This document shows positions 1-22,592 of a DNA stretch of 64,000 nt, piece after piece; position 1 is the stretch's first letter, and each line of letters starts with the position of its first letter. The notes beneath the pieces were generated by a model, which made no database searches, was not told the origin of the DNA, and worked only from the letters and a program-made list of their open reading frames with translations. The stretch covers positions 2,097 through 66,096 of the forward strand of contig JANJUM010000097.1 of the NCBI GenBank assembly GCA_024710585.1, in the 5' to 3' direction. The stretch comes from Desulforhopalus sp. (GTDB lineage Bacteria; Desulfobacterota; Desulfobulbia; Desulfobulbales; Desulfocapsaceae). Position numbers and translations under genes: made by a program.

Positions 1-710
1 TTGGTTTTCAGCTTGATCAGCGCCTGGCTGTGCAGCTGGCTGACGCGACCCTCGGAGAGGTCCATGGCCTCGGCGATCTCCTTCTGGGTCAGCTCTTCGT
101 AGTAGTACAGGGAGATGACGATGCGTTCCTTTTCGGTAAGCTGGCCGAGCACCTGGGCGATGGTGGCGGTGAGCTGCTGGTCCTCGATACGGGCGCCCGG
201 CGCAGCCTGCGGCCGATCGTCGGTAAGATTGTCGAGGAAGGAACGCCCCTCTTCGGAGTGGTCGAGGCTCTCGTTGAGGCTGACGCAGCCGAGATGGTTG
301 ACCTCGACGAGGACGGCGCGGTACTCGTCGAGGGACAAGTCCATGGCCCCCGCCACCTCGTGCTCTTCCGGCTCGCGGCCGAGACGCATTTCGAGGTCGG
401 CGATGGTCCGGCCGATGCGGTTGTGCTTGTCGCGCAGGGAGCGCGAGAACCAGTCGAGCTTGCGCATCTCGTCAAAGATGGCGCCGCGGATACGGTACTC
501 GGCGAATGTCTTGAAGAGTATGTTCTTGGCCGGGTCGTACTTGTTGGCGGCGTCGAGGAGGCCGAGCATGCCGGCGCTCCTGATGTCGTCGCGGCTCATG
601 AAGGACGGCACCTGGGTGACCATGCGCCGCGTGATGATATCCACCAGGTAGAGGTGGTCCTGGATGAGCTGCGAGCGATTGTCGAGATGCGGCGGGCGAC
701 CGTAGAGCAT
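1..710 (-). CDS. fliA: RNA polymerase sigma-28 factor FliA (3' end runs off the window)
   Basis: Not in the ORF track (no stop inside the window). Manual translation from ATG at 710 gives MLYGRPPHLDNRSQLIQDHLYLVDIITRRM...GLLDAANKYDPAKNILFKTFAEYRIRGAIFDEMRKLDW...YYYEELTQKEIAEAMDLSEGRVSQLHSQAL, i.e. sigma70-family regions 2 and 4 of FliA type. Lies directly after flhG. Confidence 0.95.
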   Translation of the reverse strand, partial: MLYGRPPHLDNRSQLIQDHLYLVDIITRRMVTQVPSFMSRDDIRSAGMLGLLDAANKYDPAKNILFKTFAEYRIRGAIFDEMRKLDWFSRSLRDKHNRIGRTIADLEMRLGREPEEHEVAGAMDLSLDEYRAVLVEVNHLGCVSLNESLDHSEEGRSFLDNLTDDRPQAAPGARIEDQQLTATIAQVLGQLTEKERIVISLYYYEELTQKEIAEAMDLSEGRVSQLHSQALIKLKT

Positions 711-716
711 GCTGTC

Positions 717-1616
717 CTAGCCTCCCATGTGCAACAGTTTCTTCCAGAAGAACTGGAGGTTGCCCTTGGGCACCGCCTGGGTCGGCTCTGAGCAGATGCG
801 GCCGGCGAGCTGGCGGAAGGCCTGGGTTATCTTCGACTGCGGGAAGAGCTCGCTGATCACCTTCTGCTTGCGGATCGACTCCACCATCTGCCGGTCGTCG
901 GGGATCGAGCCGAGATAGTCGATGGAGATGTCGAGGTAGCGGTTGGCGACCATGGTCAGCTTGCGGTAGACGTCGAGGGCGTCGTCCTCGTTGAGGATCT
1001 GGTTGACGACCAGGTTGAAATTCTTCTCGTGGTACTGGGTGGAGAGGAGCTTCATCAGGGCGTAGGCGTCGGTGATCGCCGTCGGCTCGGGGGTGGTGAT
1101 GACGACGATCTCCTGGGCGGCGGTGTTGAAGTAGGTGACGTTCTCGGAGATGCCGGCCTCGGTGTCGATGAGCACGAAGTCGAAGTGGTTCTGGATGGCG
1201 TCGAGGCCGTCGAGGAGGCGCAGCTTCTGGCGCGAGTCGAGGTTGGTGAAGTTCTGGATGCCCGAGCCGGCCGGGAGGATTTTGATGCCCAGCGGCCCGT
1301 CGACCATGATCTGCTGCAGTTCCTGTTCGCCGGAGAAGAAGTTGTTGAGATTGTAGAGAGGCGAAATGCCGAAAACCACGTCGATATTGGCGAGGCCGAG
1401 GTCGGCGTCGAGGATCAGCACCTTCTTGCCCATGGAGGCGAGCATATAGGCGAGGTTGGCGACGACGGCAGTCTTGCCGACGCCGCCCTTGCCGCTGGTG
1501 ATGGAGTAGACGCTGGTCGGCGCCTCCACCTTCTGCGGCAGGCCGTTGTGGCGATGGGAGTTGAGGTCGCGGAGCGTCTTGGCCTGATCGCCCGCCATGC
1601 GGGAGATATTAGTCAT
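717..1616 (-). CDS. flhG: MinD/ParA-family flagellar number regulator FlhG (FleN)
   Basis: Deviant Walker A SGKGGVGKT, DADLGLANID and ITDAYALMK motifs; sits between flhF and fliA. Confidence 0.93.
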   Translation of the reverse strand: MTNISRMAGDQAKTLRDLNSHRHNGLPQKVEAPTSVYSITSGKGGVGKTAVVANLAYMLASMGKKVLILDADLGLANIDVVFGISPLYNLNNFFSGEQELQQIMVDGPLGIKILPAGSGIQNFTNLDSRQKLRLLDGLDAIQNHFDFVLIDTEAGISENVTYFNTAAQEIVVITTPEPTAITDAYALMKLLSTQYHEKNFNLVVNQILNEDDALDVYRKLTMVANRYLDISIDYLGSIPDDRQMVESIRKQKVISELFPQSKITQAFRQLAGRICSEPTQAVPKGNLQFFWKKLLHMGG

Positions 1617-3030
1617 GCATCGATCCTTGCTGTGGATTCATGATCAGCTCGGCGGCGAGCTTGGCGGTGGCGGTCATGAGGTCTTCCGGGACTCTCTGGC
1701 CATTGGCGAAAAATGACAGCGGGCTGGGGTTTTGTATCTGAACGTTGAGAACTGCCCCGAGGGTGGCGCATTCGTCGATCTTGGTATAGATGGTATGAGT
1801 GATGCCCAAGGGGCGGAAGCGCTCGATGGCGTCGAGCAGCTCCTGCTCGCGGGTGGTGGCGGAGAGCACCAGATGCTTGTCGATGTTCTGCTGCGCCGGG
1901 AAGAAGAGGCACAGCTCCTCGATGGACATGCTGTCGCGCGGGCTGCGCCCGGCGGTGTCGATGAGGATCAGCTCCTTGTCGCGGTGGCGCTCCAGGGCCT
2001 GCTGCAGCTGCTCCGGGGTGATGACCACCTCCACCGGCAGGTCCATGATTTCGCCGTAGACTTTGAGCTGCTCCACCGCGGCGATGCGATAGGTGTCGAT
2101 GGTGATCATCGCCACTGAGCGCGAGTGCCTGCCGAGGTAGGAGGCGGCGATCTTGGCCAGGGTGGTGGTCTTGCCGACCCCTGTGGGGCCGACCAGGGCG
2201 ATGCGCCGTGGCCCGGCCTGGCTGGCGGAGAAGGGCGGGTCGACCTGGAAGAGGTCACGGATGGTGTCCTTGATGGCGGCGACGATGACTTCCTCGCTGC
2301 CCAGCTCGCGTTCGGTAAGGCTCTCGCGGAGAAAGCCGGCGATGGTTCGCGCCGTCTCGACGTTGACGCCCCGCTCGACGAGGAGCGACAGGGGTCGGTC
2401 GCCATGGATGGCGGCGTTGTGATAGCGGGCGCCGTTTTCCCCGCTGCGCACCGACAGCTGGCGCGTCGCAGGGGCCGGGCGGGCGGCCTCCTGCTCGCCT
2501 ATCAGGGCGATGCGCCCGGCGAGGCTCTTGACCAGGTCCTTGAGCTCGTTGACTTCGTTCTGCAGGTCCGGCTCCGGCTTGACGGGGGAGCTGTCAGCGC
2601 TCTTCTGCTGTTGCGACGGGGTATCCAGAGGGGCGGAGCGGCCAGCCTGGCCGCTTTCCGCCGACATGCGTCCCGCCGGGCTGTAGCCGTTGAAGAAGAG
2701 GCCCTTGCCACCAGGCTCGTCGAGGGAATCGTCGACCACCGAGCGCAGCGAAGATGTCGACGCTGCCCCGCCTTGCTCCTGCCTCCGGCCATTATTGCCA
2801 TGACGTTCGCCGAAAGGTGCGGCGGAGGCCGGCTGGCGCTGCTCGGCCTTTTTATCGGCATAAGGCGTGTCGATGGCGGCGGTGATTTCCAGCATCGGCT
2901 TGCCGAGGAGGCCGAGCTTGCCGGCACGCACCGTCCTGGTGGAGAGAATGAGGGCGTCGGGGCCGAGCTCCTTCTTGACCATCTTCAGCCCTGAGGCCAT
3001 GTCCGTTGCTTCGAAGACTCTAACTTGCAT
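1609..3030 (-). CDS. flhF: Flagellar SRP-type GTPase FlhF
   Basis: GPTGVGKTTT, DTYRIAAVEQL, DTAGR and TKID motifs; N-terminal VFEATDMASGLKMVKKELG; canonical flhA-flhF-flhG-fliA order. Confidence 0.95.
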   Translation of the reverse strand: MQVRVFEATDMASGLKMVKKELGPDALILSTRTVRAGKLGLLGKPMLEITAAIDTPYADKKAEQRQPASAAPFGERHGNNGRRQEQGGAASTSSLRSVVDDSLDEPGGKGLFFNGYSPAGRMSAESGQAGRSAPLDTPSQQQKSADSSPVKPEPDLQNEVNELKDLVKSLAGRIALIGEQEAARPAPATRQLSVRSGENGARYHNAAIHGDRPLSLLVERGVNVETARTIAGFLRESLTERELGSEEVIVAAIKDTIRDLFQVDPPFSASQAGPRRIALVGPTGVGKTTTLAKIAASYLGRHSRSVAMITIDTYRIAAVEQLKVYGEIMDLPVEVVITPEQLQQALERHRDKELILIDTAGRSPRDSMSIEELCLFFPAQQNIDKHLVLSATTREQELLDAIERFRPLGITHTIYTKIDECATLGAVLNVQIQNPSPLSFFANGQRVPEDLMTATAKLAAELIMNPQQGSMHD

Positions 3031-5119
3031 CGAGGGTCACCGTGCCGAGGGAGCGGATTTTCAGGTTGGGCACCACTTCGTTATGGGAAATGATCGCCAG
3101 GGCCGGGTAATAGCGTTCAGTGAGGCTGCGCACGTAGGGGCGGATCTGCGGTGCGCTGAGCAGCACCGGGCGGCTGCCACCCTCGAAAAGGGGGATGCAC
3201 CTGCCGATGGAATCGAGGATGCGCTGGGCGATGATCGGGTCGATGGCGAGGTAGCTGCCGGTCTCCTTATGCTGAATGGAGCCGCGGATGGCCTCCTCTG
3301 CCGGCCGCGCCAGGGTGATGACCGGGATGACGCCGTTGACGGCCAGATCGGAGCTGATGGTGCGCGCCAGGGCGTGGCGCACGTACTCGGTGAGCACGTC
3401 AGTATCGTGGGTGGCGGCGGCCCAGTCGGCCATGGTCTCGAGGATGGTGCGCAGGTCGCGGATGGAGACGCCCTCCTTGAGCAGGTTCTGCAGCACGCGC
3501 ATGATGGTGCCCAGGGAGAGCACGTTGGGCACCAGTTCCTCGACCAGCTTGGGATAGTGCTTGGCGAGGTTGTCGAGCAGGGCCTGGACTTCCTGGCGGC
3601 CGATGAGCTCGTGGCTGTGCTGCTTGATGATCTCGCTGATATGGGTGGCCATGACGGTGGTGCAGTCGACCACGGTGTAGCCGGCCATCTGCGCGCGGTC
3701 CTTCTTGTCGGAGGTGATCCAGATGGCGGGCAGGCCGAAAGCCGGCTCGACGGTAGCGATACCGCGGATGGTCTCGGTGACCAGGCCGGGGTCCATGGCC
3801 ATGTAATGGCCGGGCATCATCTCCGCCGAGGCCACCCTGACCCCTTTGAGGGAGAAGGTGTACTGGTTGGGGTTGAGCTGCAGGTTGTCGCGGATGTGCA
3901 CCGGCGGAACGATGAAGCCATTGTTCATGGCGAACTGTTTTCTGATCGACTGGATGCGGTTGAGCAGTTCGCCGTCCTGGGCGGCGTCGACGAAGGGGAT
4001 CAGCCCGTAGCCGACCTCGAGTTGCAGCATGTCGACATGGAGCATCTCCTCGTAGTTCTCCTCGCGTTTGGCGGGGGCCTGGGCCGGCTTCTCCTCCACC
4101 TCCTCCACTTCCTCGGCCTTGCGTTTCTTGTCGAGATGGAAGGCGAGAAAGGCCATCGACATGGCAAGCAGCATGAACGGCACGAAGGGCAGGCCGGGGA
4201 TGATGGCGAAGGCGACGAGAATCGCCGCCACCACCCAGATGGCCACCGTGCTCGAGGTGAACTGCTTCTGCAGGTCGCTGCCGAAATCTTTTTAGCCGGT
4301 GCTGCGGGTGACGAGGAGGCCGGCGGCGGTGGAGATGATCAGGGCGGGAATCTGTCCGACCAGGCCGTCGCCGACGGTGAGGATGGTATAGTTGGCGGCG
4401 GCGTCGGCCATGGCCATGTCTTTCTGCACCACGCCGATGATGAAGCCCGCACCGACGTTGATCAGGGTGATGATGATGCCGGCGATGGCATCGCCCTTGA
4501 CGAACTTCGAGGCACCGTCCATGGCGCCGTGGAAGTTGGCCTCCTTGGCGATGTTCTCCCGGCGGCTGCGCGCCTCGGCCTCGTTGATGAGGCCGGCGTT
4601 GAGGTCGGCGTCGATGGCCATCTGCTTGCCGGGCATGGCGTCGAGGGTGAAGCGCGCCGCGACCTCGGCGACCCTGCCGGCACCCTTGGTGATGACCATG
4701 AAATTGATGATCACCAGAATGACGAAGATCACCACCCCGACCACATAGTTGCCGCCGACGACGAACTGCCCGAAGGCCTGGATGACGTGGCCGGCCGCCG
4801 CCGGACCTTCGTCGCCGCGGAGGAGGATGAGGCGCGTCGAGGCGACGTTCAGCGACAGCCGGAACATGGTGGTGACCAGCAGCAGCGAGGGGAAGATGGA
4901 GAAGTCGGTGGCCTTGGCGGTATAGAGGCTGAGGATGAGGATGAGCAGGGCGACGGTGATGCTCAGGGTAAGGAAGAGATCAAGCACCAGCGGCGGCATG
5001 GGAATGATCATCATCATCAGGATGGCGACCAGGCCAAAGGCGGCCATTACATCGCTGCGGCCAAGCAGCTGCTTGTAATCGTAGGTAGCCAGGGCGTTCT
5101 GGATGGTGGTCAGTTCCAT
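3020..5119 (-). pseudogene. flhA: Flagellar export gate protein FlhA interrupted by one in-frame TAA at 4292-4294
   Basis: ORFs 4292-5119 (TM part with the FHIPEP signature [23 protein letters not shown]) and 3020-4246 (last TM helices plus cytoplasmic domain) are in the same frame. The junction reads ACC GGC TAA AAA GAT TTC GGC = T-G-*-K-D-F-G. Read through, the frame is 699 codons plus stop, a normal FlhA length. Confidence 0.9.
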
Positions 5120-6189
5120 CAGCGGGTCTTGCCTTTCAGTGAATAGACATGGGCGAGAATCTCGGCGACGGCCTTGAAGAGATGCTCGGGGATCGATGCT
5201 CCCAGATCGAGTTTATGCAATATCCGAGCCACGGGCGGGTTCTCGATGACAGGTACGCCATGCTCCTCGGCTATGGCGCGGATCTTCTGGGCGAGGTAGT
5301 CGGCGCCCTTGGCGACGACCTGGGGGGCGTCCATTTCCTCGGAATGGTAGCGCAGGGCGACGGCGAAGTGGGTCGGGTTGGTGACTACCACATCGGCGCC
5401 GGGGACTTCGGCCATCATGCGCTTGCGCGCCATCTCCTGCTGGATGGAACGGATCTGTGCCTTGATGTGGGGGTCGCCTTCGCTTTCCTTGAACTCCTCC
5501 TTGAGCTCCTGCTTGGTCATCTTCATTTTCTCCTCCATCTCCCAGCGCACATAGAGGAAGTCGAGGAAGGCGAGGAGGATGAGGACGGCGCAGATCTTGG
5601 CCATGATCAATGCCGCCACCCGGCCGAGGAAGCGCAGGGTGGTGGTGATATCGGTGTCGACGAGGATGAGCGCCTCGCGAAAGTTGTCGAGCACGGTGGA
5701 GTAGGACACCCAGCCGATGAGCAGCACCTTGAGCAGCGATTTGAGCAGCTCGACGATGGCGCGCTTGGAGAAGAGCCGACCGATGCCGGCGAAGGGGTCG
5801 AGCTTGGCGAAATCGGGGATCAGCGGCTTGGCGGTGAGCAACCAGCCGAACTGGAAGAAGCCGGAGAAAAAGGATACCACCATGACCAGCAGGAAGAGAG
5901 GGGCAAGCATCAGGCCGATCTCCTTGAGGAGAAAGGCGGCCAGCGACAGGGTGGAGGCGGCGGTGACACGAAATTCGCCACTGGCCTGCCACAGCGCAAA
6001 GAGCATCTCGGTCAGACCCTTCCAGAAGGTCGGCAGGTACATCAGCCAGAAGAGCAGGCCAAGGGTGAGCAGGGCGGCGGTCTGCACCTCGCGGCTCTGC
6101 GCTACCTGGCCCTTGTTGCGAAAGTCCTCGCGTCGCTTGGTTGTCGGGTCTTCGGTACGTTCGCCGCCGGCGGGGCTTTCTTCGGCCAT
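5119..6189 (-). CDS. flhB: Flagellar export protein FlhB
   Basis: ERTEDPT N-terminus, four TM segments, autocleavage motif TNPTH. Confidence 0.96.
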
Positions 6190-6273
6190 GATGTCAGGGG
6201 CGCAAGGGGGGGTGAACGGGTAAGGGGCAAAGCGGCGTGGCCCGCAGAGCCCGGTAGCGGTTACCCGGTATTT

Positions 6274-6289
6274 TGCAAGATACGCGCCC
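6274..6289 (-). promoter_or_regulatory. Candidate sigma54 -24/-12 promoter for flhB-flhA-flhF-flhG-fliA
   Basis: Minus strand GGGCGCGTATCTTGCA compared with consensus TGGCACG-N4-TTGCW; exact GG-N10-GC spacing; in the fliR-flhB gap. Confidence 0.55.
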
Positions 6290-6326
6290 GGCGGGGGGAG
6301 GGTGAATGGATTTGGCTGGTGCCGTT

Positions 6327-7109
6327 CTAAAAGGCGAGATAGCTGAGGATGGTCGCCAGTCGTTCCGGGAGAGTGTCAAATTCTCGTCGAACCAGGGTCG
6401 CGATGAGATCGAGTGTCAAAGCGATGACAATGAAGCCGATGCCGATGTTGAGCGGGAAGGAAAGCAGGAAGACGTTGAGCTGGGGGAAGACCCGGGCGAG
6501 GATGCCGAGGATCAGTCCGGAGAAGAGCAGCACGGCCAGCACCGGGGCGCTGAACTGCACGCCGATGATGAACATGTGCGAGGCGAGCCGCATGAGGTAG
6601 GGAATCGCCTCGCCGCCGACGGCGAACTGGCCGGGGGGCAGCAGCTGGTAGGAGGTGACCACGGCGCGCAGAAAGATGTGGTGGCCGTCGATGGCGAGAA
6701 AGACGAGGATGGCGAAGACGTTCTGGAACTGCGAGATGAGCTCCACCTGGCGTTCGCTCTGCGGGTCGTAGACGTTGGCCGAGGCGAAGCCCATCTGGAA
6801 GCCGACCACCGAGGCGCCGAATTCGACGGCGGTGAAGATGAGGCGGGTGGCCAGCGCCAGCAGCAGGCCGACCAGGGTCTCGGAGAGCACGAGGAGGAGC
6901 AGCGCCAGGGGGGTGAAGTCGGCCTGGGGGACGGCATCCTGCATGAGCGGATAGAGCAGCAGCGAGGCGACCAGTACGAGCATGGTCTTGACCCGGCCAG
7001 GGGTCTGCGCCGAGGCAAGCACCGGGATGGCGCCGATGAAGCCGGCGACCCGTGCCAGCACCACCAGGAAGATCTGCAACTGCGCCACCGGCAGCAGGGG
7101 GAAGTCCAT
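6327..7109 (-). CDS. fliR: Flagellar export protein FliR
   Basis: Hydrophobic; FQMGFASANVYDP, LAIDGHH and PQLNVF motifs. Start re-set to ATG 7109 (MDFPLLP). Confidence 0.93.
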   Translation of the reverse strand: MDFPLLPVAQLQIFLVVLARVAGFIGAIPVLASAQTPGRVKTMLVLVASLLLYPLMQDAVPQADFTPLALLLLVLSETLVGLLLALATRLIFTAVEFGASVVGFQMGFASANVYDPQSERQVELISQFQNVFAILVFLAIDGHHIFLRAVVTSYQLLPPGQFAVGGEAIPYLMRLASHMFIIGVQFSAPVLAVLLFSGLILGILARVFPQLNVFLLSFPLNIGIGFIVIALTLDLIATLVRREFDTLPERLATILSYLAF

Positions 7110-7114
7110 GATCG

Positions 7115-7378
7115 CTACAGGGTGGCCATCGTCTCGAAGAGGCCGATGGTAAAGACCGTCATCACCTTGATCAGCCACGGCCCGAAGAGCAGCATGGCGA
7201 GGAAGACGGCGACGATTTTGGGGACGAAGCTCAGCGTCTGCTCGTTGATCTGCGTCGCCGCCTGGAAGATGGAGACGAGCAGGCCGACGACCATGCCGAT
7301 GACGAGCATCGGCGCCGACACCATGAGAATGGTCTGGATCGCCTTGCGGCAGATATCGACGGCCTGTTCCGGACTCAT
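7115..7378 (-). CDS. fliQ: Flagellar export protein FliQ
   Basis: C-terminal 87 aa of track ORF 7115-8353: MSPEQAVDICRKAIQ...FQAATQINEQTLSFVPKI; GAGGAGG RBS upstream of ATG 7378. Confidence 0.95.
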   Translation of the reverse strand: MSPEQAVDICRKAIQTILMVSAPMLVIGMVVGLLVSIFQAATQINEQTLSFVPKIVAVFLAMLLFGPWLIKVMTVFTIGLFETMATL

Positions 7379-7419
7379 CGCGACCTCCTCAGGACGCGGC
7401 GCAGCTCCCTGCGACGGGG

Positions 7420-8181
7420 TCAGTTGAAACTCTTGATGAGGGAGCCGACAACGAGGCTCCAGCCATCGACGAGCACGAAGAGCAGCAGCTTGAAGGGCAT
7501 GGAGATGATCACCGGCGGCAGCATCATCATGCCCATGGACATCAGCACCGAGGCGACGATCATGTCGATGACGAGAAAGGGGATATAGATCATGAAGCCC
7601 ATCATGAAGGCGCGCTTCAACTCGGAGAGCATGAAGGCCGGGACCAGGGTGGTGGTGGGGATGTCTTCGGCCTCCACCGGCTCGTCCTTCATGGTGATCT
7701 CGGCCAGCAGGGTGAGTTCCTCCTCGCGCACCTGGCTGAGCATGAACTCGCGCAACGGGGCGATGCCGCGCTGCAGGGCGACGTCCTGGCTGATCTGCTC
7801 GGCGAGATAGGGCTGCAGGGCCTGTTCGTTGATCTTGCTCAGGGTCGGTGACATGATGAAGAAGGTGAGGAAGAGGGCAAGGCCGAGAAGGATCTGCGTC
7901 GGCGGCATGTTCTGCGTGCCCATGGCCTGGCGGATGAAGCCGAGGACGATGATGATGCGCGTGAAACAGGTGGTCATGAGGAGGATCGACGGTGCCAGGG
8001 AAAGCACGGTGATCAGCATCAGCACCTGGATGGCGGTGGAGATCTGCCGTGGCGACTGCGCCTCCTCGACGCCGAAGGTCACCGTGGGGACGGTAACGGC
8101 CAGGGCGGTAGAGGCGAGCAGCAGGACCAGGGGCAGCGCCACGGCGAGAGGGGCGATAGGGCGGAGCATGGCGGCGTTCAT
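7420..8181 (-). CDS. fliP: Flagellar export protein FliP
   Basis: LLMTTCFTRIIIVL, PAFMLSELKRAF and MGMMMLPP...LPFKLLLFVLVDGW-type motifs. Start set at ATG 8181, which overlaps the fliO stop (ATGA). Confidence 0.95.
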   Translation of the reverse strand: MNAAMLRPIAPLAVALPLVLLLASTALAVTVPTVTFGVEEAQSPRQISTAIQVLMLITVLSLAPSILLMTTCFTRIIIVLGFIRQAMGTQNMPPTQILLGLALFLTFFIMSPTLSKINEQALQPYLAEQISQDVALQRGIAPLREFMLSQVREEELTLLAEITMKDEPVEAEDIPTTTLVPAFMLSELKRAFMMGFMIYIPFLVIDMIVASVLMSMGMMMLPPVIISMPFKLLLFVLVDGWSLVVGSLIKSFN

Positions 8182-8591
8182 GGGCTCTGGTCCTTGCCGA
8201 CCGAGGCCAGGGCGGCGGCGAAGGTGGCGCTCTCCTGCGGGGGCAGGGTGGCGAGATGGCTGATGCTGTCGCCACTGAGGCCGAGGAGGTGCTCCTGCCC
8301 CCTGACGCGCACCAGGCAAAGCGACTTCCTGCCGCCGAGCGGCTTGATCTCAACGATGGCGATCTGCTTTTCGGGGCTGGCGGCGAGCAGCGAAAAGCGC
8401 TTGCGCAGCAGGGCGTAGAGGATGAGAATGATGGCGGCGACGATGCCCAGCCCCCAGAAGACGCGGAAGTAGCTCTCCATCTCGATCAGCGCCGAGGTCG
8501 CGGCCAGGGCTGGGGAAGCGCTGGCCAGGGCTGCCGGAAAGGTCGCCGCAGAAGAGAAGCGGCGGAGGCGGCTGGTGTTGGTCGATGCCAT
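8178..8591 (-). CDS. fliO: Flagellar protein FliO/FliZ
   Basis: One TM helix followed by IVEIKPLGGRKSLCLVRVRGQEHLLG; lies between fliN and fliP. Confidence 0.85.
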   Translation of the reverse strand: MASTNTSRLRRFSSAATFPAALASASPALAATSALIEMESYFRVFWGLGIVAAIILILYALLRKRFSLLAASPEKQIAIVEIKPLGGRKSLCLVRVRGQEHLLGLSGDSISHLATLPPQESATFAAALASVGKDQSP

Positions 8592-8603
8592 GGCGCAGGG
8601 TAC

Positions 8604-8969
8604 TCAGCCGAGGTTCTCGATGCGGTCGGAGGTGCTGATGACGTCGGTGAGACGGATGCCGAACTTGTCACCGACGAGCACCGCTTCACCCCTGGCAATG
8701 AGGCGGGAGTTGACGTAGAGATCGAGGGGCTCGCCGGCGAGCTTGTCGAGCTCGATGACATAGCCCTCGCCCATTTTCAGCAGGTCGCGGAGGAGGATCT
8801 TGCTGCGCCCGACTTCCACCGAAATCTGCAGGGGGATATCGTAGAGGAAGTCGAGGCCGCGGCCGTCGGCGTCAGCGATCCCGGCGGATCTCGGGCTGCC
8901 GGGGGAGTCGTTCTGCAGCAGTTCCTTGATTTCTTCCGGGGCCGGTCGACTGTTTCCTGGATTGGCCAT
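8604..8969 (-). CDS. fliN: Flagellar switch protein FliN
   Basis: LDFLYDIPLQISVEVG...ELDKLAGEPLDLYVNSRLIARGEAV SpoA domain. Confidence 0.96.
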   Translation of the reverse strand: MANPGNSRPAPEEIKELLQNDSPGSPRSAGIADADGRGLDFLYDIPLQISVEVGRSKILLRDLLKMGEGYVIELDKLAGEPLDLYVNSRLIARGEAVLVGDKFGIRLTDVISTSDRIENLG

Positions 8970-8984
8970 GGTGGTGGTCCTTGT

Positions 8985-9965
8985 TCATTGGTGGACGGAG
9001 ACGAGGCTGATCGCCTTTTTGCCGTTATTATGGCCGGGGATGGCCGAGAATTTCCAGCGGTCCTCGACCAGCACCTTGAGCGGCGCATTGGGGTTGTATT
9101 CGAGGGGGAGAATGTCTCCCTCCTTGAGGGCGAGAATCTGCTTGATGGTCAGATCGATGGTGCCGGAAAGAGCGGTGACTGAGGCTGCCACCTCCCTGAC
9201 CTCCTCTTCGAGGACGCTCTGCCAGGAGGACTTGAGCAGCGTGGGGATGTTGAGCAGCTCGCGCAATGCGTCACGCAGTGGTTCGAGGGTGGCGAAGGGG
9301 AAGAGCAGGTGCAGTTCCCCGCTATGGTCGCCGACCTTGACGTTGAAGGTGCCGACGATGACCTCCGATTCCGGCTCGACGATGGACACCAGGCGGGCGT
9401 TGTTCTCGAGCTTGACCAGCGAGGCGCGCATCTCCAGCAGCTGCGCGAAGGCCTTATTGAGGTCGCCGCAGACGTCGTTGAGGATGGCCTTGAGGATATT
9501 GAGCTCCAGGGGAGTGAGCTTGCGGTCGAGGTGCAGGGGCTGCAACTCCGAAGAGGCGCCAAGCATGATCTCCAGCACCGAGAAGGAGAGCACCGGGTCG
9601 AGGATGATCATCGCCCCGTATTTGAGGGGGTTGAGGTCGAGTATGCCGATGGCCCCGGGATTGCTCTTGTCGGCCATGAACTTCTGGAACTCGTAGCTCT
9701 CGAGGGCGGTGCGGGTGATGGTGAAGGAGCGCTGCAGCTGGTTGCTGATCGAGGTGGCGTAGGTGCGGCAGAAGCTGTCGAGGATAATGTCGAAGTTGGG
9801 GATGCGGAACTGGGTGGTGTCCGGCCTGGTCAGCTGAAAGAGGTTGGCCGGGGTGCACTGAAGGTTTGGTTCGCTGCGCCGCTCGTCGACGTCGAGGGGC
9901 ACGCGCCCCTCGCGGATGGCCTGGAGCAGGTCGGCGATCTCCGCCTTGCTGAGGATCGGTTCCAT
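8985..9965 (-). CDS. fliM: Flagellar switch protein FliM
   Basis: N-terminal CheY-binding LSKAEIADLL motif, CheC-like middle domain, SpoA C-terminus. Confidence 0.93.
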   Translation of the reverse strand: MEPILSKAEIADLLQAIREGRVPLDVDERRSEPNLQCTPANLFQLTRPDTTQFRIPNFDIILDSFCRTYATSISNQLQRSFTITRTALESYEFQKFMADKSNPGAIGILDLNPLKYGAMIILDPVLSFSVLEIMLGASSELQPLHLDRKLTPLELNILKAILNDVCGDLNKAFAQLLEMRASLVKLENNARLVSIVEPESEVIVGTFNVKVGDHSGELHLLFPFATLEPLRDALRELLNIPTLLKSSWQSVLEEEVREVAASVTALSGTIDLTIKQILALKEGDILPLEYNPNAPLKVLVEDRWKFSAIPGHNNGKKAISLVSVHQ

Positions 9966-9984
9966 GGGCTCCTGTTCCCCTTGA

Positions 9985-10503
9985 TTACTGCACCACGAAG
10001 TTGGTGAAGTAGACCGCCCGCACCTTGCCGCTCTTGAGGAAGGTGTTGATCTTGCTGGTGATTTCCGCTTTAAGCTGCTTCTTGCCCTGCAGGTCCTGGA
10101 GCTCTTCGAAGGTCTTGCTGCCGATGAGCAGGAGCACCGCGTCGCGCACCTGGGGCATACGTTTTTCCACCTCGCCCTTGCCTTCCTCGCTGGTCATCTC
10201 GAGGACCAGCGAGGCCTTGACGTAATGCGCGGTATCGCCGCTGATGATGTTGACGATGAACTCTTCGATGGTCACCTGCGGGCCGATATCGGCCTGGGCG
10301 CTGAGTTCGGGGACCGGCACCTGCTTGGCCGGGTCCTTGGACTCCTTGGCCTCGTCAGCGCTCTTTTTCATGAGCAGATAGGCGGTGACGCCGCCGCCGA
10401 CGAGGAGCAGCAGGACCAACACCGCGACAATGATGATCACCAGTTTTTTCTTGCCGCCGCTGGGGGCTTCCGCGGCCTCTTTCTTCTTTTCAGCCATAGC
10501 CAT
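9985..10503 (-). CDS. fliL: Flagellar basal body protein FliL
   Basis: N-terminal TM helix, then EEFIVNI...RDAVLLLIGSKT...VYFTNFVVQ. The true start may be the second ATG at 10497 (better RBS spacing). Confidence 0.93.
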   Translation of the reverse strand: MAMAEKKKEAAEAPSGGKKKLVIIIVAVLVLLLLVGGGVTAYLLMKKSADEAKESKDPAKQVPVPELSAQADIGPQVTIEEFIVNIISGDTAHYVKASLVLEMTSEEGKGEVEKRMPQVRDAVLLLIGSKTFEELQDLQGKKQLKAEITSKINTFLKSGKVRAVYFTNFVVQ

Positions 10504-10536
10504 GCCTCGGGAAGGGGGGGATGATGCCGAAGTACT

Positions 10537-10552
10537 TGCAAAGATCGCGCCT
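10537..10552 (-). promoter_or_regulatory. Candidate sigma54 promoter for fliL-fliR
   Basis: Minus strand AGGCGCGATCTTTGCA immediately after the motB stop; exact spacing. Confidence 0.6.
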
Positions 10553-11349
10553 TAAAGAGGGGCGAGGGCGTTCCGAGGGGAGGTTTTTCCGCCGGAGCCG
10601 CCGGGCTTGTTGAGGCGCAGGACGAAATCGACGCGGCGGTTGATGGCCCGGGTGGCATCGTCCATGTTGCGGATGACCGGGCGATCCTTGCCGTAGCCGA
10701 CGGCGCCCATGCGGTCGAGGGGCAGCAGGTCGCTCTCTTTGAAGAAGCGCAGCACCGAGACGGAACGGGCCACTGAGAGGTCCCAGTTGCCGTCGGCGAT
10801 GCCGGCTACGGGCGTGTCGTCGGTATGGCCCTCGATGCGTACATCCATGGGCAGGGGGCGGATGATATCGGCGACATTCCTCAGGATGGGGTAGGACTGC
10901 GGGGCGATCTGCGCCTTGCCGGGTTCGAAGAGCACCGAATCGTTGATGCGCAGCACCAGGGCCTCGTCGTCGGTCTTCTGCAGGCCGACACTGTCCTGGA
11001 GGCGCATCGAGTCGAGCTGCGATTTGACCTTCTCGTAGATCTTCTCCACCGAGGGCGCGGTGATCGGAGCGAATTCGACCTTGGGCTGCTTGGGGAACAC
11101 CGGCACCACGAACTCCACCTGGGACGAGGGGTCCTTCCCGGTAAGGGCGGAGCGGATGGAGGCGGCGGCGGCGGTGAAATTGACCTTGTTGGTGGTCGAC
11201 ATCGACTGCAGCAGCACGAAGAAGGTAAGCAGCAGGGTGACCAGGTCGGAAAAGGTCACCAGCCAGGCCGGCGCCCCTTCCGGGCAGCTCTGCTTCTTAC
11301 ATTTCTTCGGCGTCTCTTCGCCCTTGTCCTTGTTCTTCTCTTCGGCCAT
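10552..11349 (-). CDS. motB: Stator protein MotB/PomB (OmpA-like peptidoglycan-binding domain)
   Basis: WLVTFSDLVTLLLTFFVLL TM with the conserved Asp; EGHTDD, NWDLSVARS and NRRVDF motifs. Start re-set to ATG 11349 (MAEEKNK). Confidence 0.95.
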   Translation of the reverse strand: MAEEKNKDKGEETPKKCKKQSCPEGAPAWLVTFSDLVTLLLTFFVLLQSMSTTNKVNFTAAAASIRSALTGKDPSSQVEFVVPVFPKQPKVEFAPITAPSVEKIYEKVKSQLDSMRLQDSVGLQKTDDEALVLRINDSVLFEPGKAQIAPQSYPILRNVADIIRPLPMDVRIEGHTDDTPVAGIADGNWDLSVARSVSVLRFFKESDLLPLDRMGAVGYGKDRPVIRNMDDATRAINRRVDFVLRLNKPGGSGGKTSPRNALAPL

Positions 11350-11359
11350 GCTGGTGTGC

Positions 11360-12127
11360 CTACTTGTTGAACATCGACTCGCGCAGCTTTGGAGCGATGA
11401 AAGCATGGAGCTTCTGCTCCATGATGCGCGGGTTTTCCCCGGAGAGGATCGACTGCATGCCCTCGATGATCAGGGTCTTGACGAGGACTTCGGAAGTGGA
11501 GCGGCCCTTGAGTTTGCCGGAGATGGGCAGGCAGATGACGTTGGCGATGACCGCCCCGTAGAAGGTGGTGATCAGGGCCACCGCCATGGCCGGACCGATG
11601 GCCGAGGGGTCGCTCATGTTCTGCAGCATCTGCACCAGGCCGATGAGGGTACCGATCATGCCCATGGCCGGGGCGTAGGCGGCAAGGGTGCTGAAAATTG
11701 CCGCCCCCTGCTCGTGGCGCATCTGGATGTACTCGATTTCGGTATTGAGCATGTCCCTGAGGGTGGCAGGCTCCTGCCCGTCCACCGCCATCTGCATGGC
11801 CTTCTTGAGGAAGTCGTCCTGCACTGCCTCCATGGCACCCTGCAGGGCGAGGATACCTTCCTTGCGCGCCTTGTTGGCATATTCCATAAGCTGGGTGATA
11901 AGGGCGTTGATGGCCATCTCCTGCACGAAAACGGCTTTTTTACCGACCGACACCGCCAGGGCGATCTCTTTGAAGGGGTAGTGGATGAGGGTGCAGCCGA
12001 TGGTGCCGCCGAAGACGATCAGCACCGAGGGGATGTCGATGAAAATGGTCAGCGGGCCACCCATCATGATCGCCCAGAGCACCAGGCCGAAGGTGGTCAG
12101 CAAACCAATTATTGTTGCGAGATCCAA
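11360..12127 (-). CDS. motA: Stator protein MotA/PomA
   Basis: ARKEGILAL, APAMGMIGTLIGLVQML and AVALITTFYG motifs; TTG start with a GGGAGG RBS. Confidence 0.95.
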   Translation of the reverse strand: MDLATIIGLLTTFGLVLWAIMMGGPLTIFIDIPSVLIVFGGTIGCTLIHYPFKEIALAVSVGKKAVFVQEMAINALITQLMEYANKARKEGILALQGAMEAVQDDFLKKAMQMAVDGQEPATLRDMLNTEIEYIQMRHEQGAAIFSTLAAYAPAMGMIGTLIGLVQMLQNMSDPSAIGPAMAVALITTFYGAVIANVICLPISGKLKGRSTSEVLVKTLIIEGMQSILSGENPRIMEQKLHAFIAPKLRESMFNK

Positions 12128-12233
12128 TCGTTACCTCCCTTTCGCGAACGCCTCCCCGGGGCTGCGCTTGCGGCAGCGGAAGAGGGCGGGATTTCCTGCT
12201 GAAACTTCGTGCCCTTATCATAGACTGGCGTCT

Positions 12234-12249
12234 TGCAAAACTCAAGCCC
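12234..12249 (-). promoter_or_regulatory. Candidate sigma54 promoter for motA-motB
   Basis: Minus strand GGGCTTGAGTTTTGCA, about 105 nt upstream of motA. Confidence 0.5.
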
Positions 12250-12475
12250 GGCCTGAGGCTCCTGTCAAGAAAGGGGCCTCGAGGCAAAGAGCAGGGAGGG
12301 CGAGTGGACGGGGACTGGGAGGTTGTGGCGAGGGGTAGTGCGAGGTGAGGCAGAAGCGATAGCCGAGCAAGGGATGGAAGGAGACCTCAAATGAAGCGCG
12401 GGAGACGGCATGGCGAGAGGTGCCGGGACCTCATCGCTGTCGTCCCCCGCGCGGGGTGTGCCAAATATTTGACGA

Positions 12476-13744
12476 TTACCGTTTGAGGTTGATGAGTTCG
12501 CCGAGAAGCTCGTCGACGGTGGTGATGATCTTCGAATTGGCCTGGAAGCCGCGCTGGGCGGTGATCATGCGCACGAACTCGGCACCCATGTCGACGTTGG
12601 ACTGCTCCAGGGAGTTGGTGAACACCTTGCCCAGTTCCGGGCCGGGGATGCCGGTTCGAGCCGGGCCGGAGGCGGAGGTCTCCGTGTAGAGGTTGCTGCC
12701 CGCCAGCTGCAGGCCATTGGGGTTGACGAACTTGCCCAGCACCAGCTGGGCGATCTTGGTCTGCTCGCCGTTGGAGTAGGAGGCGATGACGATGCCGTCG
12801 CCGTCGATGTCGACACCGGTGAGGTTACCGGCGCCGAAACCGTTCTGGTCCTGGGAGATGACCACCGACTCGGAGTTGAACTGGGTGGTGTCGAAGTTTA
12901 CCTCGATGGCGGTGGGGGTGGTGCCGTTGCCCCAGTCGAGGGCCACGGTGTTGGCGGTGGTCTTCTGCGGCGGGTCGAGGGCGGCGTTAGTCAAAATACC
13001 GTCATTGGTGAAGGTCAGTGTCGTCCATACCGCCGGGGGATCGGGGTTGACCACTCCGGCGTTATCTTCGTAGCTATAGTAGACATCCCAGGTATTGTTG
13101 GCGGTTTTCTTGAAATAGGTGGAGAGCAGGTGGGGGTTGCCGAGGCTGTCATAAATTTGAACAGAAGAGGAATAGTTGTAGCTGTCGGCGTCGTCGTAGG
13201 CGAAGGCGACGGCGTTGATGGGCTCGGCGGAATCGAGGTTGGTGGTCAGCTTGAGTTCGTTGGTGACCTGCCCCTGGATGAGGCCGCTGCTCTGTACGCG
13301 GATGGAACTTGCGTCACCCGGAAGCAGTTCGCCGTTAGCATCAAACTGCTTGCCCATCACCTGCAGCCCTTCGGGGTTGACCAGGTAGCCGTCGTCGTCG
13401 AAGCGGAAGGCGCCGGCGCGGGAGTAGTAATTGGTCTCGTCGCCAGGTTCCTTGAGGATGAAGAAGCCTTCGCCTTCGATGGCCACGTCGAGGCCCGACT
13501 CGGTGGACTCGAAAGTGCCCTGGCTGAAGACCTGGTCGACCTTGGACATGCCGACACCGCGACCAACCTGGGAGGAGCCGCCGGAGCCGTTGATGGTCGA
13601 GGAGAGGAGGTCGGAGAAGACCGTCCGCGACCCTTTGAAGCCGACGGTGTTGGTGTTGGCCAGGTTGTTGCCGATGACGCTCATCGCCTGGGAGTTGGTG
13701 TTCAGCCCGCTGACGCCGCTGTACAGTGCGCTTGAGATACCCAT
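12476..13744 (-). CDS. flgE: Flagellar hook protein FlgE
   Basis: VIGNNLANTNTVGFKGSR N-terminus; LEQSNVD...MITAQRGFQANSKIITT C-terminus. Confidence 0.96.
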   Translation of the reverse strand: MGISSALYSGVSGLNTNSQAMSVIGNNLANTNTVGFKGSRTVFSDLLSSTINGSGGSSQVGRGVGMSKVDQVFSQGTFESTESGLDVAIEGEGFFILKEPGDETNYYSRAGAFRFDDDGYLVNPEGLQVMGKQFDANGELLPGDASSIRVQSSGLIQGQVTNELKLTTNLDSAEPINAVAFAYDDADSYNYSSSVQIYDSLGNPHLLSTYFKKTANNTWDVYYSYEDNAGVVNPDPPAVWTTLTFTNDGILTNAALDPPQKTTANTVALDWGNGTTPTAIEVNFDTTQFNSESVVISQDQNGFGAGNLTGVDIDGDGIVIASYSNGEQTKIAQLVLGKFVNPNGLQLAGSNLYTETSASGPARTGIPGPELGKVFTNSLEQSNVDMGAEFVRMITAQRGFQANSKIITTVDELLGELINLKR

Positions 13745-13828
13745 GTCGTTCTCCTCTCCTTCTCTTACCTTAGGGGCGTGGCGCCCGTGGTGTTCGTTTT
13801 GTCGTGGTGTCGTGGCAGCGACGTATGA

Positions 13829-14650
13829 TTATAACAGTTCTTCGGCGGTGGCTGCGGTGTTGGCCAGGTTTTCCGCCGTCTCCGCCATCGCTTCGCTGGC
13901 GGCCGCCACCTCTTCGGCGGTGGAGGAGACGGTCTCTTCTTCCTCGTCCTCGGCGCTGACCGTGGATGCCCTGGCGCCGGGCTCGTAGACGCCGATGATG
14001 GCATTGAAGGCGACCTCGCCGGCTTTCGTCACCAGGGTGCCGCCGCCGCTGCCGCCGAGGTCGACGCCGGTGACTTCGGATTTGACCAGGGGCGTGGCGG
14101 CGACGCTCTCGCCTTCGGTGGCCTTGGCGCTGACGACGATCTTGTATTTGCCGATAGGGGCGGTGCTGCCATCAGCGGTCAGCCCGTTCCAGGTAAAATA
14201 GTGGTTGCCGGCGGTAAGCTCGGTGCCCTTGATGGTTGCCTGGGTGACACCGTTCAGCTGCAGCTGCAGGGTGACCTCGCTGGCAGAGCCGTCCAGCTGA
14301 TAGCCGATCTCCACCGGCGAGCCGTCGAAGGCGAAGGAGGACGAGGTGTAGGCGACCTCCTTGCCGATGGTGGAGAGCGTCGACAGCCGGTCGGAATTGG
14401 CGTTGGAAGTGACCAGGTTGTTCATGCTCTCGTTGAGGGTGAAGAGCTGCTCGAGCGAGCTGAACTGCGCCAGCTGGGCGGTGAACTCGGTGGGGTCGTC
14501 GGGGTTGAGCGGGTCCTGGTTCTGCAACTGGGCGACGAGCAGCATGAGGAAGTCCTGCTTGCCCATGATCGCCTCATTCTTGTCGCGGGCGGTGGTCTTG
14601 CCGGTGGAGGCGGTCGAGGCCTGGTTGATGGATTCGATATAGCTGCCCAT
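13829..14650 (-). CDS. flgD: Hook capping protein FlgD
   Basis: [36 protein letters not shown] signature. Confidence 0.96.
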
Positions 14651-14663
14651 GGCGAACTCCCTG

Positions 14664-16169
14664 TTATGCTTTGACGTCGAGTCCGGCGGCGGGTTGCGGC
14701 GTCGTCAGTCCCTCCATGGAGAAGACCGCGCCGTCATTCTGTCCGTCTGACGTGGAGGGCGGATTGTAGTCACTGCCCCCGAAGAGCTGCTGGTCGAAGA
14801 GATTGAAGTCGTCAACCGAGCGCGAGGAGGTGGAGACGAGGATCTCGTCGATGGAGAAGCCCTGGCTCTCGAGCACGGTGCGCAGGCGGTTCATGTTCTT
14901 TTCGAGGATATCCTGGGCGACCTGGGTGGAAGCGACGACGTTGGCCCGGACCGTACCGTTCTTCACCGAGAGGTCGATGCGCAACTCGCCCAGCTCGGCG
15001 GGGTGCAGCTGCAGGTTGATGCGGGTGTCGGCATCACGGCGGCTGATCTGGAAGCGCTCGGCTATCTGGCGGATGACCTCCTCCCGCTGAACCATGGTGC
15101 CGGAGGGCAGCAGCAGGGGCCGGCTGCTGTCATACGCCTGGGGTCTGAGGGCCTCCTGAGCCATGGCCAGGGGCTGCGTGAAGGCGCTGGGGCTGTCGCC
15201 TGGCAGGGAACCTGTGCCGGTGGCGAGAGTGGCGTCGACGGCGGCCTTGGCGGTCTGGCCAGGACTCTGCTGCTGTTGTTGCTGGCCTTCGCTGGCATTG
15301 TTCTGTTTTTCCTGCTGCGCTTCAAGCGCCATGCGCCCTTCGATGTACTGCTGCTGCAGGCTGAGCCGTGCCGGTTGGCTGGGCGCGCTGGTCTCGCCGC
15401 CCGCGGCGACGCGAGGCAGGCCAAGCGGCAGGCTCTCCTGTGCCTCGCCGCCTTCGCCCTGGAGGATAACGGTAATCGGGGTCTGGGCCTGGGCTTCGCT
15501 GCGCAGGGAAATCTCGCCGGAGGCGGTGGAGATGCTGGTGGTTCTCGATGCGCTGGAGATGGAGATGTCGACAGGCTTGTCGCCGCTGTCGATGATCTGC
15601 TGCAGCTGCTGGAGCAGCGGGTTCTCGCCGGCGCGGCTTTGGCCGGCATTGCCATTGGCCTTCTCCCCAGTGGAGAGGACGGCAGCGGCACCCTGTGCGC
15701 CATGCTCGGCGGCGGCAAGTAGCGCTGCGGCAGCCTGGGAAAGGCCCGGTGCGTTACCCCCGGCCAAGGGTCCGGTCGGTGCAGTGGCTGAGGGCAGCGA
15801 GGCGTTGGCTGCCGTTGCGTTCTCGGCGTTCGCCGCGGGGGAAGCGGCCGAAGACTGTGCCGCGAGAGCGGCCATGAGCATCTCGCCCAGGGTTGCTGCG
15901 CTGGCCATTTTGCTTGTCGCCGCGTAAGACTCGCCACCCTCTTGGAATACCGTCTTTTCCTTTACCTCGCCCTGCGCCGAGCTGTTTTCGCTGCTGTTCT
16001 GCGCCTCGCCCCGGGCTCCGTCCCGGGTGGACTGTGTGGTGTTTTTGATAGCCTGGTCGAGGTGCGGGGAAAACGAGGAAGAGGCGGCGGGGGCGGCGGG
16101 AGAGGCACTGGGGGCTGGGGCCTGGGGGGCGATGGGGGCGATGGCGAGTTGCGGCATGGCGTCATTCAA
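14664..16169 (-). CDS. fliK: Hook-length control protein FliK
   Basis: Ala/Ser/Gln/Pro-rich N-terminus; C-terminal [20 protein letters not shown]3S4 domain; precedes flgD. Confidence 0.9.
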
Positions 16170-16758: not shown

Positions 16759-16814
16759 ATCGGAAATATTATGCAAAAGGTTGATCAGGCGTAATTATGC
16801 GCATGTTTAATGCT

Positions 16815-17255: not shown

Positions 17256-17304
17256 CGTCGTTATCCCTGTTGCCGTTCACCAAAAAGGGAGGCGTCTGCC
17301 ACCG

Positions 17305-20530: not shown

Positions 20531-20536
20531 CTCTGG

Positions 20537-22589: not shown

Positions 22590-22592
22590 GGC

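What the first reader, a model, noticed from the sequence alone, without database searches (positions are those of the whole stretch)
3020..5119. One ochre codon knocks out flhA inside an otherwise intact 25-kb flagellar cluster
Seen: the frame reads ...T-R-S-T-G-TAA-K-D-F-G-S-D-L... at 4292-4294 with no frameshift, and every other flagellar gene in the window looks full length. Established: FlhA is essential for flagellar type III export, so a true stop should abolish flagella. Inference: a single G>T change from GAA (Glu) is the simplest origin. It could be a very recent loss of motility (e.g. culture adaptation), a polymorphism, or a sequencing error. A split FlhA re-starting at GTG 4246 is less likely, because the break lies before the last TM helices.
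Basis: partly seen in the sequence, partly recalled or inferred. Interest (0 to 1): 0.62.

Follow-up and report, generated by a model that had tools for sequence, protein, structure and literature searches.

The report
Premature stop codon in flhA
One stop codon really does cut the essential flagellar export gene flhA in this draft genome, but it is a private, very recent single-base change (a young null allele or a sequence error), not a new way of building or decoding the protein.

Summary
flhA (minus strand, 5119..3020) has an in-frame TAA at 4294..4292 (codon 276), with no indel. The other 25 or so flagellar genes of the ~26-kb cluster are full length.

All 36 related genomes with a match, and 102 further loci, lack a stop here. 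Congeners have Glu (GAA/GAG). The closest relative (92% nucleotide identity) has an intact 699-aa FlhA that is 99% identical. dN/dS is 0.010 before the stop and 0.023 after it, so the lesion is much younger than the split from that relative, or it is not real.

TAA is a normal terminator here (18% of 744 orthologous gene ends). No ochre-suppressor tRNA was found. The split is not conserved, and GTG 4246 lacks a ribosome-binding site.

flhA is not unique. At least five other conserved genes on other contigs carry single nonsense codons. Three of those are also Glu-to-TAA, whereas 1.73 Mb of the sister genome shows none. This pattern is unexplained.

Real allele and consensus error therefore stay roughly even. 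As written the gene is null. Closest precedent: the flhA stop codon of Bordetella pertussis.

The parts
3020..5119 (-). flhA, complete 699-codon frame plus its TAG terminator, interrupted once
   Evidence: TIGR01398. 99% aa and 95.4% nt identity to the intact flhA of the closest relative.
4292..4294 (-). In-frame ochre codon TAA at codon 276, replacing Glu. It aligns with Asp274 of Salmonella FlhA, in the loop between TM6 and TM7.
   Evidence: Relatives have GAA/GAG (GAT in one).
4295..5119 (-). N-terminal product as written: 275 aa, covering TM1-TM6 with the FHIPEP loop
   Evidence: profile positions 2-254 of 678.
4247..4291 (-). Fifteen in-frame codons (KDFGSDLQKQFTSST) with no start codon. 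They are lost to both pieces if the stop is obeyed.
3020..4246 (-). Possible C-terminal ORF from GTG 4246: 408 aa, covering TM7-TM8, the linker and the cytoplasmic ring domain. A gene caller called it as a separate protein in a public collection.
   Evidence: (P0124). SD duplex energy is only -2.2 kcal/mol.
5119..6189 (-). flhB, intact. Its TGA overlaps the flhA ATG (ATGA), so the two are translationally coupled.
1609..3030 (-). flhF, intact. It overlaps the flhA 3' end by 11 nt.
3..25907 (-). Flagellar cluster running from fliA to flgB and the TPR gene. All genes other than flhA are full length.

Best explanation
A single, private, evolutionarily very recent base substitution (G>T, GAA Glu to TAA) sits in a flhA gene that is otherwise intact and strongly constrained.

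Read by the standard bacterial code, which this genome uses, it ends FlhA after 275 residues. The product lacks TM7-TM8, the linker and the cytoplasmic nonamer-ring domain that docks export substrates and chaperones. The recorded allele should therefore abolish flagellar type III export and flagellation, while the rest of the regulon stays intact.

It is not an evolved two-piece FlhA and not a recoded codon. It is one of at least six single nonsense codons in conserved genes of this draft assembly.

Whether the T exists in cells (a young null allele carried by the sampled population) or only in the consensus sequence cannot be settled here. I put these at roughly 45% and 40%.

Shown: the stop, its privacy, its youth, normal TAA usage, and the other nonsense codons. 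Inferred: loss of function, from established FlhA biology.
For: - The stop is present with no indel, and there is only one flhA copy.
- 36 of 36 related genomes with a match have no stop at this site. Two long-read-like assemblies have unrelated frameshifts.
- Glu sits in the motif TGEKDFG in all congeners. None of 102 wider loci has a stop here.
- Against the closest relative, 88 of 95 differing codons are synonymous.
- dN/dS is 0.010 upstream and 0.023 downstream of the stop. The window's own lineage has only 2 amino-acid changes downstream, across 963 nonsynonymous sites. That bounds a neutral phase to below about 0.0065 substitutions per site, against a pairwise dS of 0.22.
- flhA is the only interrupted gene among about 75 syntenic genes.
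- TAA ends 9 flagellar genes in the window and 134 of 744 orthologous gene ends.
- No tRNA with anticodon UUA was found.
- Other private nonsense codons, each checked against orthologs: an MCP, Glu>TAA; an FAD-dependent protein, Glu>TAA; an Fe-S oxidoreductase, GAA>TAA against the closest relative; a membrane protein, TGG>TAG; an OYE-family reductase, TGG>TGA.
- Over 1.73 Mb aligned with the sister genome, this assembly has 3 verified nonsense codons and the sister has 0.
Against: Nothing contradicts a private point substitution. What is missing is the means to split 'real' from 'error':

- No other assembly carries this species' allele.

Four of the six nonsense codons are the same change, Glu to TAA, and none is GAG>TAG. 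From the codon usage I estimate that a generic mutation model gives this with probability of roughly 1e-4 to 4e-4, and a pure G>T model gives GAA>TAA for all four transversion events with probability of roughly 7e-4. Neither simple mutation nor simple damage-type error predicts that pattern.

No genome-scale burst of unselected G>T changes is visible. Nonsynonymous C>A changes run 1523 toward this genome and 1487 toward the sister.
Confidence: 0.82

Rival explanations
1. Consensus or sequencing error. The organism's DNA has GAA, and the T is a G>T miscall (for example of the oxidised-guanine type) that entered this draft assembly together with a few dozen similar errors.
For: - The assembly is fragmented: 276 contigs with N50 of 21 kb.
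- At least four private G>T nonsense codons sit in otherwise constrained genes, while the sister bin has none in 1.73 Mb.
- flhA shows no relaxed selection at all.
- mutY is intact, so no obvious in-vivo G>T mutator exists.
- Earlier notes of this scan describe assembly-private G>T stops in other metagenome bins. These are leads only.
Against: - The stop lies on the longest contig (86 kb). I infer this means decent coverage, where short-read consensus errors are rare.
- No excess of unselected G>T changes appears at genome scale or locally.
- A generic G>T error process should give more GAG>TAG than GAA>TAA, because GAG is 2.5 times commoner. None was seen.
Confidence: 0.4
2. The TAA is real but bypassed. 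A Glu-inserting ochre-suppressor tRNA (a tRNA-Glu with anticodon UUA), or unusually leaky UAA termination, yields enough full-length FlhA, so that GAA>TAA changes are tolerated.
For: - All four in-frame TAA codons found fall on Glu codons of orthologs.
- Residue 276 is a variable loop position (E/D/K/Q/S/T/G in relatives), so any inserted residue would probably work.
- tRNA-Glu(UUC) is missing from the assembly, so its anticodon could not be inspected.
- B. pertussis is reported to be motile despite a flhA stop (PMC6520453).
- In-frame stops under purifying selection are reported as widespread in prokaryotes (PMC7918605).
Against: - No suppressor tRNA was detected.
- TAA still terminates 18% of genes. 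The drift away from TAA relative to the sister genome is not significant: 45 versus 28 changes, p=0.06. It also follows the general A>G bias.
- From established knowledge, UAA is read by both release factors and is the least leaky stop.
- The sites are private to this assembly, so there has been no time for selection to act.
Confidence: 0.06
3. A functional two-piece FlhA. The 275-aa TM1-TM6 piece and a re-initiated 404- to 408-aa piece (GTG 4246, 4234 or 4231) assemble in the membrane into a working export gate.
For: - In-frame GTG codons lie 46-61 nt after the stop. Several genuine cluster genes, including flhA and flhB themselves, also have weak Shine-Dalgarno sites and rely on coupling.
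- A gene caller did call the 408-aa ORF.
Against: - The split is absent from all relatives.
- Fifteen conserved loop codons would be lost.
- The SD energy at GTG 4246 is -2.2 kcal/mol.
- The cut separates TM6 from TM7 inside one membrane domain.
- The literature cited in PMC6520453 reports that Salmonella FlhA lacking its C-terminal domain does not support assembly.
Confidence: 0.03
4. Genetic-code change: TAA is a sense codon (Glu) in this organism.
For: In-frame TAA codons coincide with Glu positions.
Against: TAA ends genes at the same position as in orthologs: in 106 of 151 cases where the sister genome has TAA, and for 9 flagellar genes in the window. The sister genome at 92% identity uses GAG or GAA at these sites.
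Confidence: 0.005

Closest known systems
Bordetella pertussis flhA in-frame stop codon (Parkhill et al. 2003, as described in Hoffman et al. 2019, PMC6520453)
   Same: A single stop codon inside flhA while the rest of the flagellar gene set is complete. The same question arises of whether the cells are truly non-flagellate.
   Different: In B. pertussis the stop is at nucleotide 1313 of 2119, in the cytoplasmic domain. It is fixed in all sequenced genomes and has been verified many times. Here the stop is at codon 276 inside the membrane domain, is seen in one draft assembly only, and is unverified by reads.
In-frame stop codons in otherwise constrained prokaryotic genes (Belinky et al. 2021, PMC7918605)
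   Same: A nonsense codon in a gene whose two halves both show dN/dS far below 1.
   Different: That paper argues from conservation of such stops across genomes. Here the stop is private, so the low dN/dS only shows that the stop is young.
G:C>T:A (8-oxoguanine-type) changes, either as library artefacts or as GO-system mutator signatures
   Same: Four of the six nonsense codons are G>T at the first base of a Glu codon.
   Different: mutY is intact. No genome-wide excess of unselected C>A changes was found. The restriction to GAA, never GAG, is not a known feature of that signature.

Membership tests
FlhA / SctV export-gate protein (TIGR01398, PF00771 FHIPEP) | Sequence matches the family profile over its whole length | tested here: met
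   The N piece scores 450.8 bits over profile positions 2-254 and the C piece 427.8 bits over 273-678 of 678. The E-value against Salmonella FlhA 36hw is 4e-191.
FlhA / SctV export-gate protein (TIGR01398, PF00771 FHIPEP) | One uninterrupted polypeptide of about 690-700 aa joining the 8-TM domain to the cytoplasmic ring domain | tested here: not met
   TAA at codon 276. Each piece alone scores below the 772-bit cut-off.
Evolved split gene (functional two-piece protein) | The split is conserved in related genomes | tested here: not met
   None of 36 related genomes and none of 102 wider loci has a stop at or near this site.
Evolved split gene (functional two-piece protein) | The downstream piece has its own start codon with a ribosome-binding site or a coupling overlap | tested here: inconclusive
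   GTG 4246 scores -2.2 kcal/mol, and GTG 4234 and 4231 score -6.2. There is no overlap with the stop, which lies 46 nt upstream.
Stop-codon reassignment or suppression of UAA | TAA is depleted or absent as a terminator | tested here: not met
   TAA ends 134 of 744 gene ends. The sister genome has 151. Turnover is 45 versus 28, p=0.06.
Stop-codon reassignment or suppression of UAA | A tRNA with anticodon UUA is present | tested here: inconclusive
   None among the 43 tRNAs found. However, the assembly lacks tRNA-Glu(UUC), Lys, Phe and others altogether.
Decaying pseudogene | Relaxed selection (dN/dS near 1) or several lesions | tested here: not met
   There is a single lesion. dN/dS is 0.010 and 0.023, and the window's lineage has 2 amino-acid changes downstream. 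It can only be a very young pseudogene.

The most novel reading that the evidence does not exclude
This uncultured Desulfobulbales bacterium carries a Glu-inserting ochre-suppressor tRNA, or otherwise reads UAA as Glu at a useful rate. GAA>TAA changes then persist in conserved genes (flhA, an MCP, an FAD-dependent protein, an Fe-S oxidoreductase) without loss of function, while TAA still serves as a terminator. This would be an early, ambiguous stage of stop-codon capture in a free-living bacterium.
Probability: 0.05. Interest if true: 0.75.

Novelty: new member of a known kind. Interest (0 to 1): 0.22.

Why it matters
If the allele is real, the sampled population of this sulfate-reducer relative has just lost flagellar export while still keeping about 50 motility genes intact. 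That would be a snapshot of the first step of motility loss, comparable to B. pertussis, and a warning against inferring motility from gene presence alone.

If the allele is an error, the lesson is practical. This draft genome carries several false or private stops, and any annotation that splits flhA into two proteins should not be propagated.

The recurring Glu-to-TAA pattern is the only part that might lead somewhere new, either to suppression or to a context-specific error mode in metagenome bins.

Tried and rejected
- **Independent copies of the allele.** An exact look-up of the 275-aa piece found nothing. The 90% protein cluster holds only the window's own 408-aa piece plus intact proteins of the sister type. 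Exact-pattern scans of metagenome contigs and genome contigs found only the sister bin. A protein-guided scan of metagenome contigs found no conspecific sequence.
- **Code change or suppression.** No UUA-anticodon tRNA was found. TAA terminator usage is normal. tRNA-Glu(UUC) is absent from the assembly, so it could not be inspected.
- **MutY-deficient mutator.** mutY is intact and scores above its cut-off.
- **Burst of unselected G>T changes.** Lineage-specific singletons in 5 kb around flhA show 3 of 40 C>A, against 4 of 35 in the sister. A nonsynonymous asymmetry seen on one contig (127 versus 86) disappeared at genome scale (1523 versus 1487). No context stood out among the 16 trinucleotide contexts.
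- **Frameshift or slippage bypass.** I read the sequence at TAAAAAG directly. The alternative frames are closed or never return to frame, and a run of five A is too short for slippage.
- **False positives removed.** Of the 35 'stops' in this genome and 28 in the sister from the alignment scan, only those checked passed. Several high-scoring ones were misalignments or non-coding shadow frames when checked by tblastn.
Full report
**The observation**

flhA lies on the minus strand from 5119 to 3020. Its frame reads ...LVTRSTG-TAA-KDFGSDL..., with the TAA at 4294..4292, which is codon 276. The read-through frame has 699 codons and no indel relative to the closest relative's gene. Against NCBIfam TIGR01398 (FlhA), the N piece covers profile positions 2-254 and the C piece covers 273-678 of 678. 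The genome holds no second flhA. Aligned to Salmonella FlhA (PDB 36hw), codon 276 corresponds to Asp274. This lies in the loop after TM6 and before TM7-TM8.

**Setting**

The window is contig C141:2097-66096 of a 4.15-Mb draft with 276 contigs. The draft has N50 of 21 kb, 63% G+C and 95.8% estimated completeness. All close relatives returned are uncultured Desulfobulbales or Desulfocapsaceae metagenome bins.

The cluster runs in this order: fliA, flhG, flhF, flhA, flhB, fliR, fliQ, fliP, fliO, fliN, fliM, fliL, motB, motA, flgE, flgD, a FliK-sized ORF, a FlbB-like ORF, fliJ, fliI, fliH, fliG, fliF, fliE, flgC, flgB. Each gene is complete against its family profile and collinear with the closest relative.

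Further flagellar genes lie on contigs C273, C208 and C110, syntenic with the relative's contig. They are intact as far as they are assembled. Of about 75 syntenic genes over 98 kb, flhA is the only one interrupted.

**Is the stop shared?**

No. Of 41 genomes of the genus and order searched (the window's own included), 37 have a match, and the 36 other than this genome have no stop at this site. Two assemblies have unrelated frameshifts. The 11 congeners aligned have Glu in the motif TGEKDFG: six GAA, four GAG and one GAT. In 102 loci from genome and metagenome collections the position is E, D, K, Q, S, T, G, L or I, and never a stop.

The closest relative, G022 (CALGIJ01), shares 91.7% nucleotide identity over 44.6 kb. 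It has an intact FlhA that is 99% identical, reading GAG AAG where the window reads TAA AAA.

**Age**

Between the two genes, 88 of 95 differing codons are synonymous. dN/dS is 0.010 for codons 1-275 and 0.023 for codons 277-699, with a dS of about 0.2.

Polarised with ten outgroups, the window's lineage has only two amino-acid changes downstream of the stop, at positions 320 and 532. The sister lineage has two or three. With 963 nonsynonymous sites downstream, even counting both changes as post-stop gives a 95% upper bound of about 0.0065 neutral substitutions per site. That is a small fraction of the lineage's roughly 0.11 synonymous divergence. The stop is therefore either very young or not real.

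**Decoding alternatives**

- TAA is an ordinary terminator. It ends nine flagellar genes in the window at the orthologous position and 134 of 744 orthologous gene ends genome-wide. The sister genome has 151.
- Turnover away from TAA is 45 changes against 28 toward it. This is not significant (p=0.06) and follows this genome's general A>G drift.
- ARAGORN finds 43 tRNAs, including tRNA-Sec but none with anticodon UUA. However, tRNA-Glu(UUC), Lys and others are simply missing from the assembly.
- In-frame GTG codons follow the stop at 4246, 4234 and 4231. Their Shine-Dalgarno pairing is weak: -2.2, -6.2 and -6.2 kcal/mol, compared with -7 to -13 for most cluster genes.
- Fifteen conserved codons would be lost if translation re-started, and the cut would divide a single membrane domain.

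**flhA is not the only casualty**

I ran a codon-usage scan of the whole assembly for stops flanked by coding sequence on both sides. I also ran a bidirectional comparison against 2.15 Mb of the sister genome, of which 1.73 Mb aligned. Candidates were then checked against orthologs. Six single nonsense codons in conserved genes were found:

| Gene | Location | Change |
|---|---|---|
| flhA | window 4292-4294 | Glu>TAA |
| Methyl-accepting chemotaxis protein | C229:7191-7193 | Glu>TAA |
| FAD-dependent protein | C175:41178-41180 | Glu>TAA |
| Fe-S oxidoreductase | C258:38710-38712 | GAA in the sister > TAA |
| Membrane protein | C52:975-977 | TGG>TAG |
| OYE-family reductase | C29:5229-5231 | TGG>TGA, inside one PF00724 match |

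In the same aligned 1.73 Mb the sister genome has no verified nonsense codon. Many in-frame TGA codons in this genome are ordinary selenocysteine sites.

**The Glu>TAA pattern**

Four of the six events are GAA>TAA, although GAA makes up only 1.8% of codons and GAG 4.6%. From this codon usage I estimate the following. A generic model gives four or more of six with probability of about 1e-4 to 4e-4. A pure G:C>T:A model gives GAA>TAA for all four transversion events with probability of about 7e-4.

I looked for a cause and found none:
- mutY is intact.
- Lineage-specific singletons around flhA show no C>A excess.
- Across 362,614 codons, nonsynonymous C>A changes are symmetric between the two genomes, 1523 versus 1487. 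No trinucleotide context stands out.

A small burst of a few dozen unselected G>T changes genome-wide would be invisible at this resolution. Earlier notes of this scan report assembly-private G>T stops in other metagenome bins. I treated those as leads only. The test they suggest, a visible burst of unselected G>T, was negative here.

**Real or error?**

This could not be decided. No other assembly of this species exists in the protein, genome or metagenome collections searched.

- For a real allele: the stop lies on the longest contig, and there is no general noise of substitutions or frameshifts in 98 kb of synteny.
- For an error: selection shows no relaxation at all, the same odd change appears in four constrained genes, and the sister bin is clean.

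I put a real young null allele at about 45%, consensus error at about 40%, functional bypass (suppression, read-through or split) at about 10%, and the rest unassigned.

**Consequence if real**

The following is inferred from established FlhA biology and from the summary in PMC6520453. A 275-residue product lacking TM7-TM8 and the cytoplasmic ring cannot form the export gate. Cells with this allele should lack flagella despite carrying a complete regulon. The closest precedent is the flhA stop codon of B. pertussis. That species has nevertheless been reported to be motile (PMC6520453), so phenotype cannot be assumed from sequence alone.

**Verdict**

The feature is an ordinary private nonsense codon of unresolved authenticity. 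The unexplained fourfold Glu>TAA coincidence is the only thread worth pulling.

Noticed in passing
G000 contig C229:7191-7193 (outside the window): A methyl-accepting chemotaxis protein (one of about 20 in the genome) has an in-frame TAA at the conserved Glu of EEMTSTINEIA. Six orthologs are intact with GAA or GAG. Two of the six nonsense-hit genes thus belong to motility or chemotaxis. My rough post-hoc estimate for that by chance is about 1%.
   Followed up: yes
G000 contigs C175:41178-41180 and C258:38710-38712 (outside the window): Two more Glu>TAA codons were found, in an FAD-dependent protein and in a 1260-aa Fe-S oxidoreductase. Together with flhA and the MCP, all four in-frame TAA codons found replace Glu. 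No GAG>TAG was seen although GAG is 2.5 times commoner. This is unexplained.
   Followed up: yes
G000 contigs C52:975-977 and C29:5229-5231 (outside the window): Two Trp codons have become stops: TGG>TAG in a membrane protein, and TGG>TGA in an OYE-family NADH:flavin oxidoreductase. These are ordinary transition-type nonsense changes.
   Followed up: yes
G000 contigs C125, C95, C181, C218, C178, C271, C104, C35: Many in-frame TGA codons sit at Cys-equivalent active-site positions. The proteins include formate dehydrogenase, HdrA, MvhD, a DsbA-like CxxC protein, a rhodanese, an SQR-like protein and a CCG-domain protein. tRNA-Sec is present, so this is a rich selenoproteome, not damage. The assignments were made by motif only.
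   Followed up: partly
window 2867-5146 (+): A 759-aa open frame runs antisense across the whole of flhA. It is a shadow ORF caused by the very high third-position G+C (0.9) of the real gene. Many such frames occur in the window and can mislead ORF-based reading.
   Followed up: yes
window 14664-16169 (-) and 16162-16776 (-): The 501-aa ORF in the fliK position matches no NCBIfam model. The next ORF matches the spirochaete collar protein FlbB only weakly (E=3e-7, below the cut-off). Both are conserved in the sister genome at 85-86% identity.
   Followed up: no
Sister contig G022:C34:56035-60509, compared with G000: About 4.5 kb next to a 726-aa gene has no counterpart in this assembly, and that gene's first 173 residues end contig C208. 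I guess this is a flagellin-type region. The flagellar regulon here is split over at least four short contigs, so its completeness cannot be fully judged.
   Followed up: partly
G000 assembly as a whole; sister contig G022:C26:545-704: tRNA-Glu(UUC), tRNA-Lys(UUU), tRNA-Phe and tRNA-Gln(CUG) are absent from this assembly. In the sister bin, Glu(UUC) and Lys(UUU) sit together at a contig end. The one tRNA whose anticodon matters for the suppression idea is therefore unobserved.
   Followed up: partly
G005:C2:1806136-1808234 and G006:C20:60386-62432 (congeneric genomes): flhA is broken into several frames in these two assemblies, which have few, long contigs. This looks like long-read indel error and not biology. 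It shows that broken flhA genes in this genus arise from assembly quality too.
   Followed up: no
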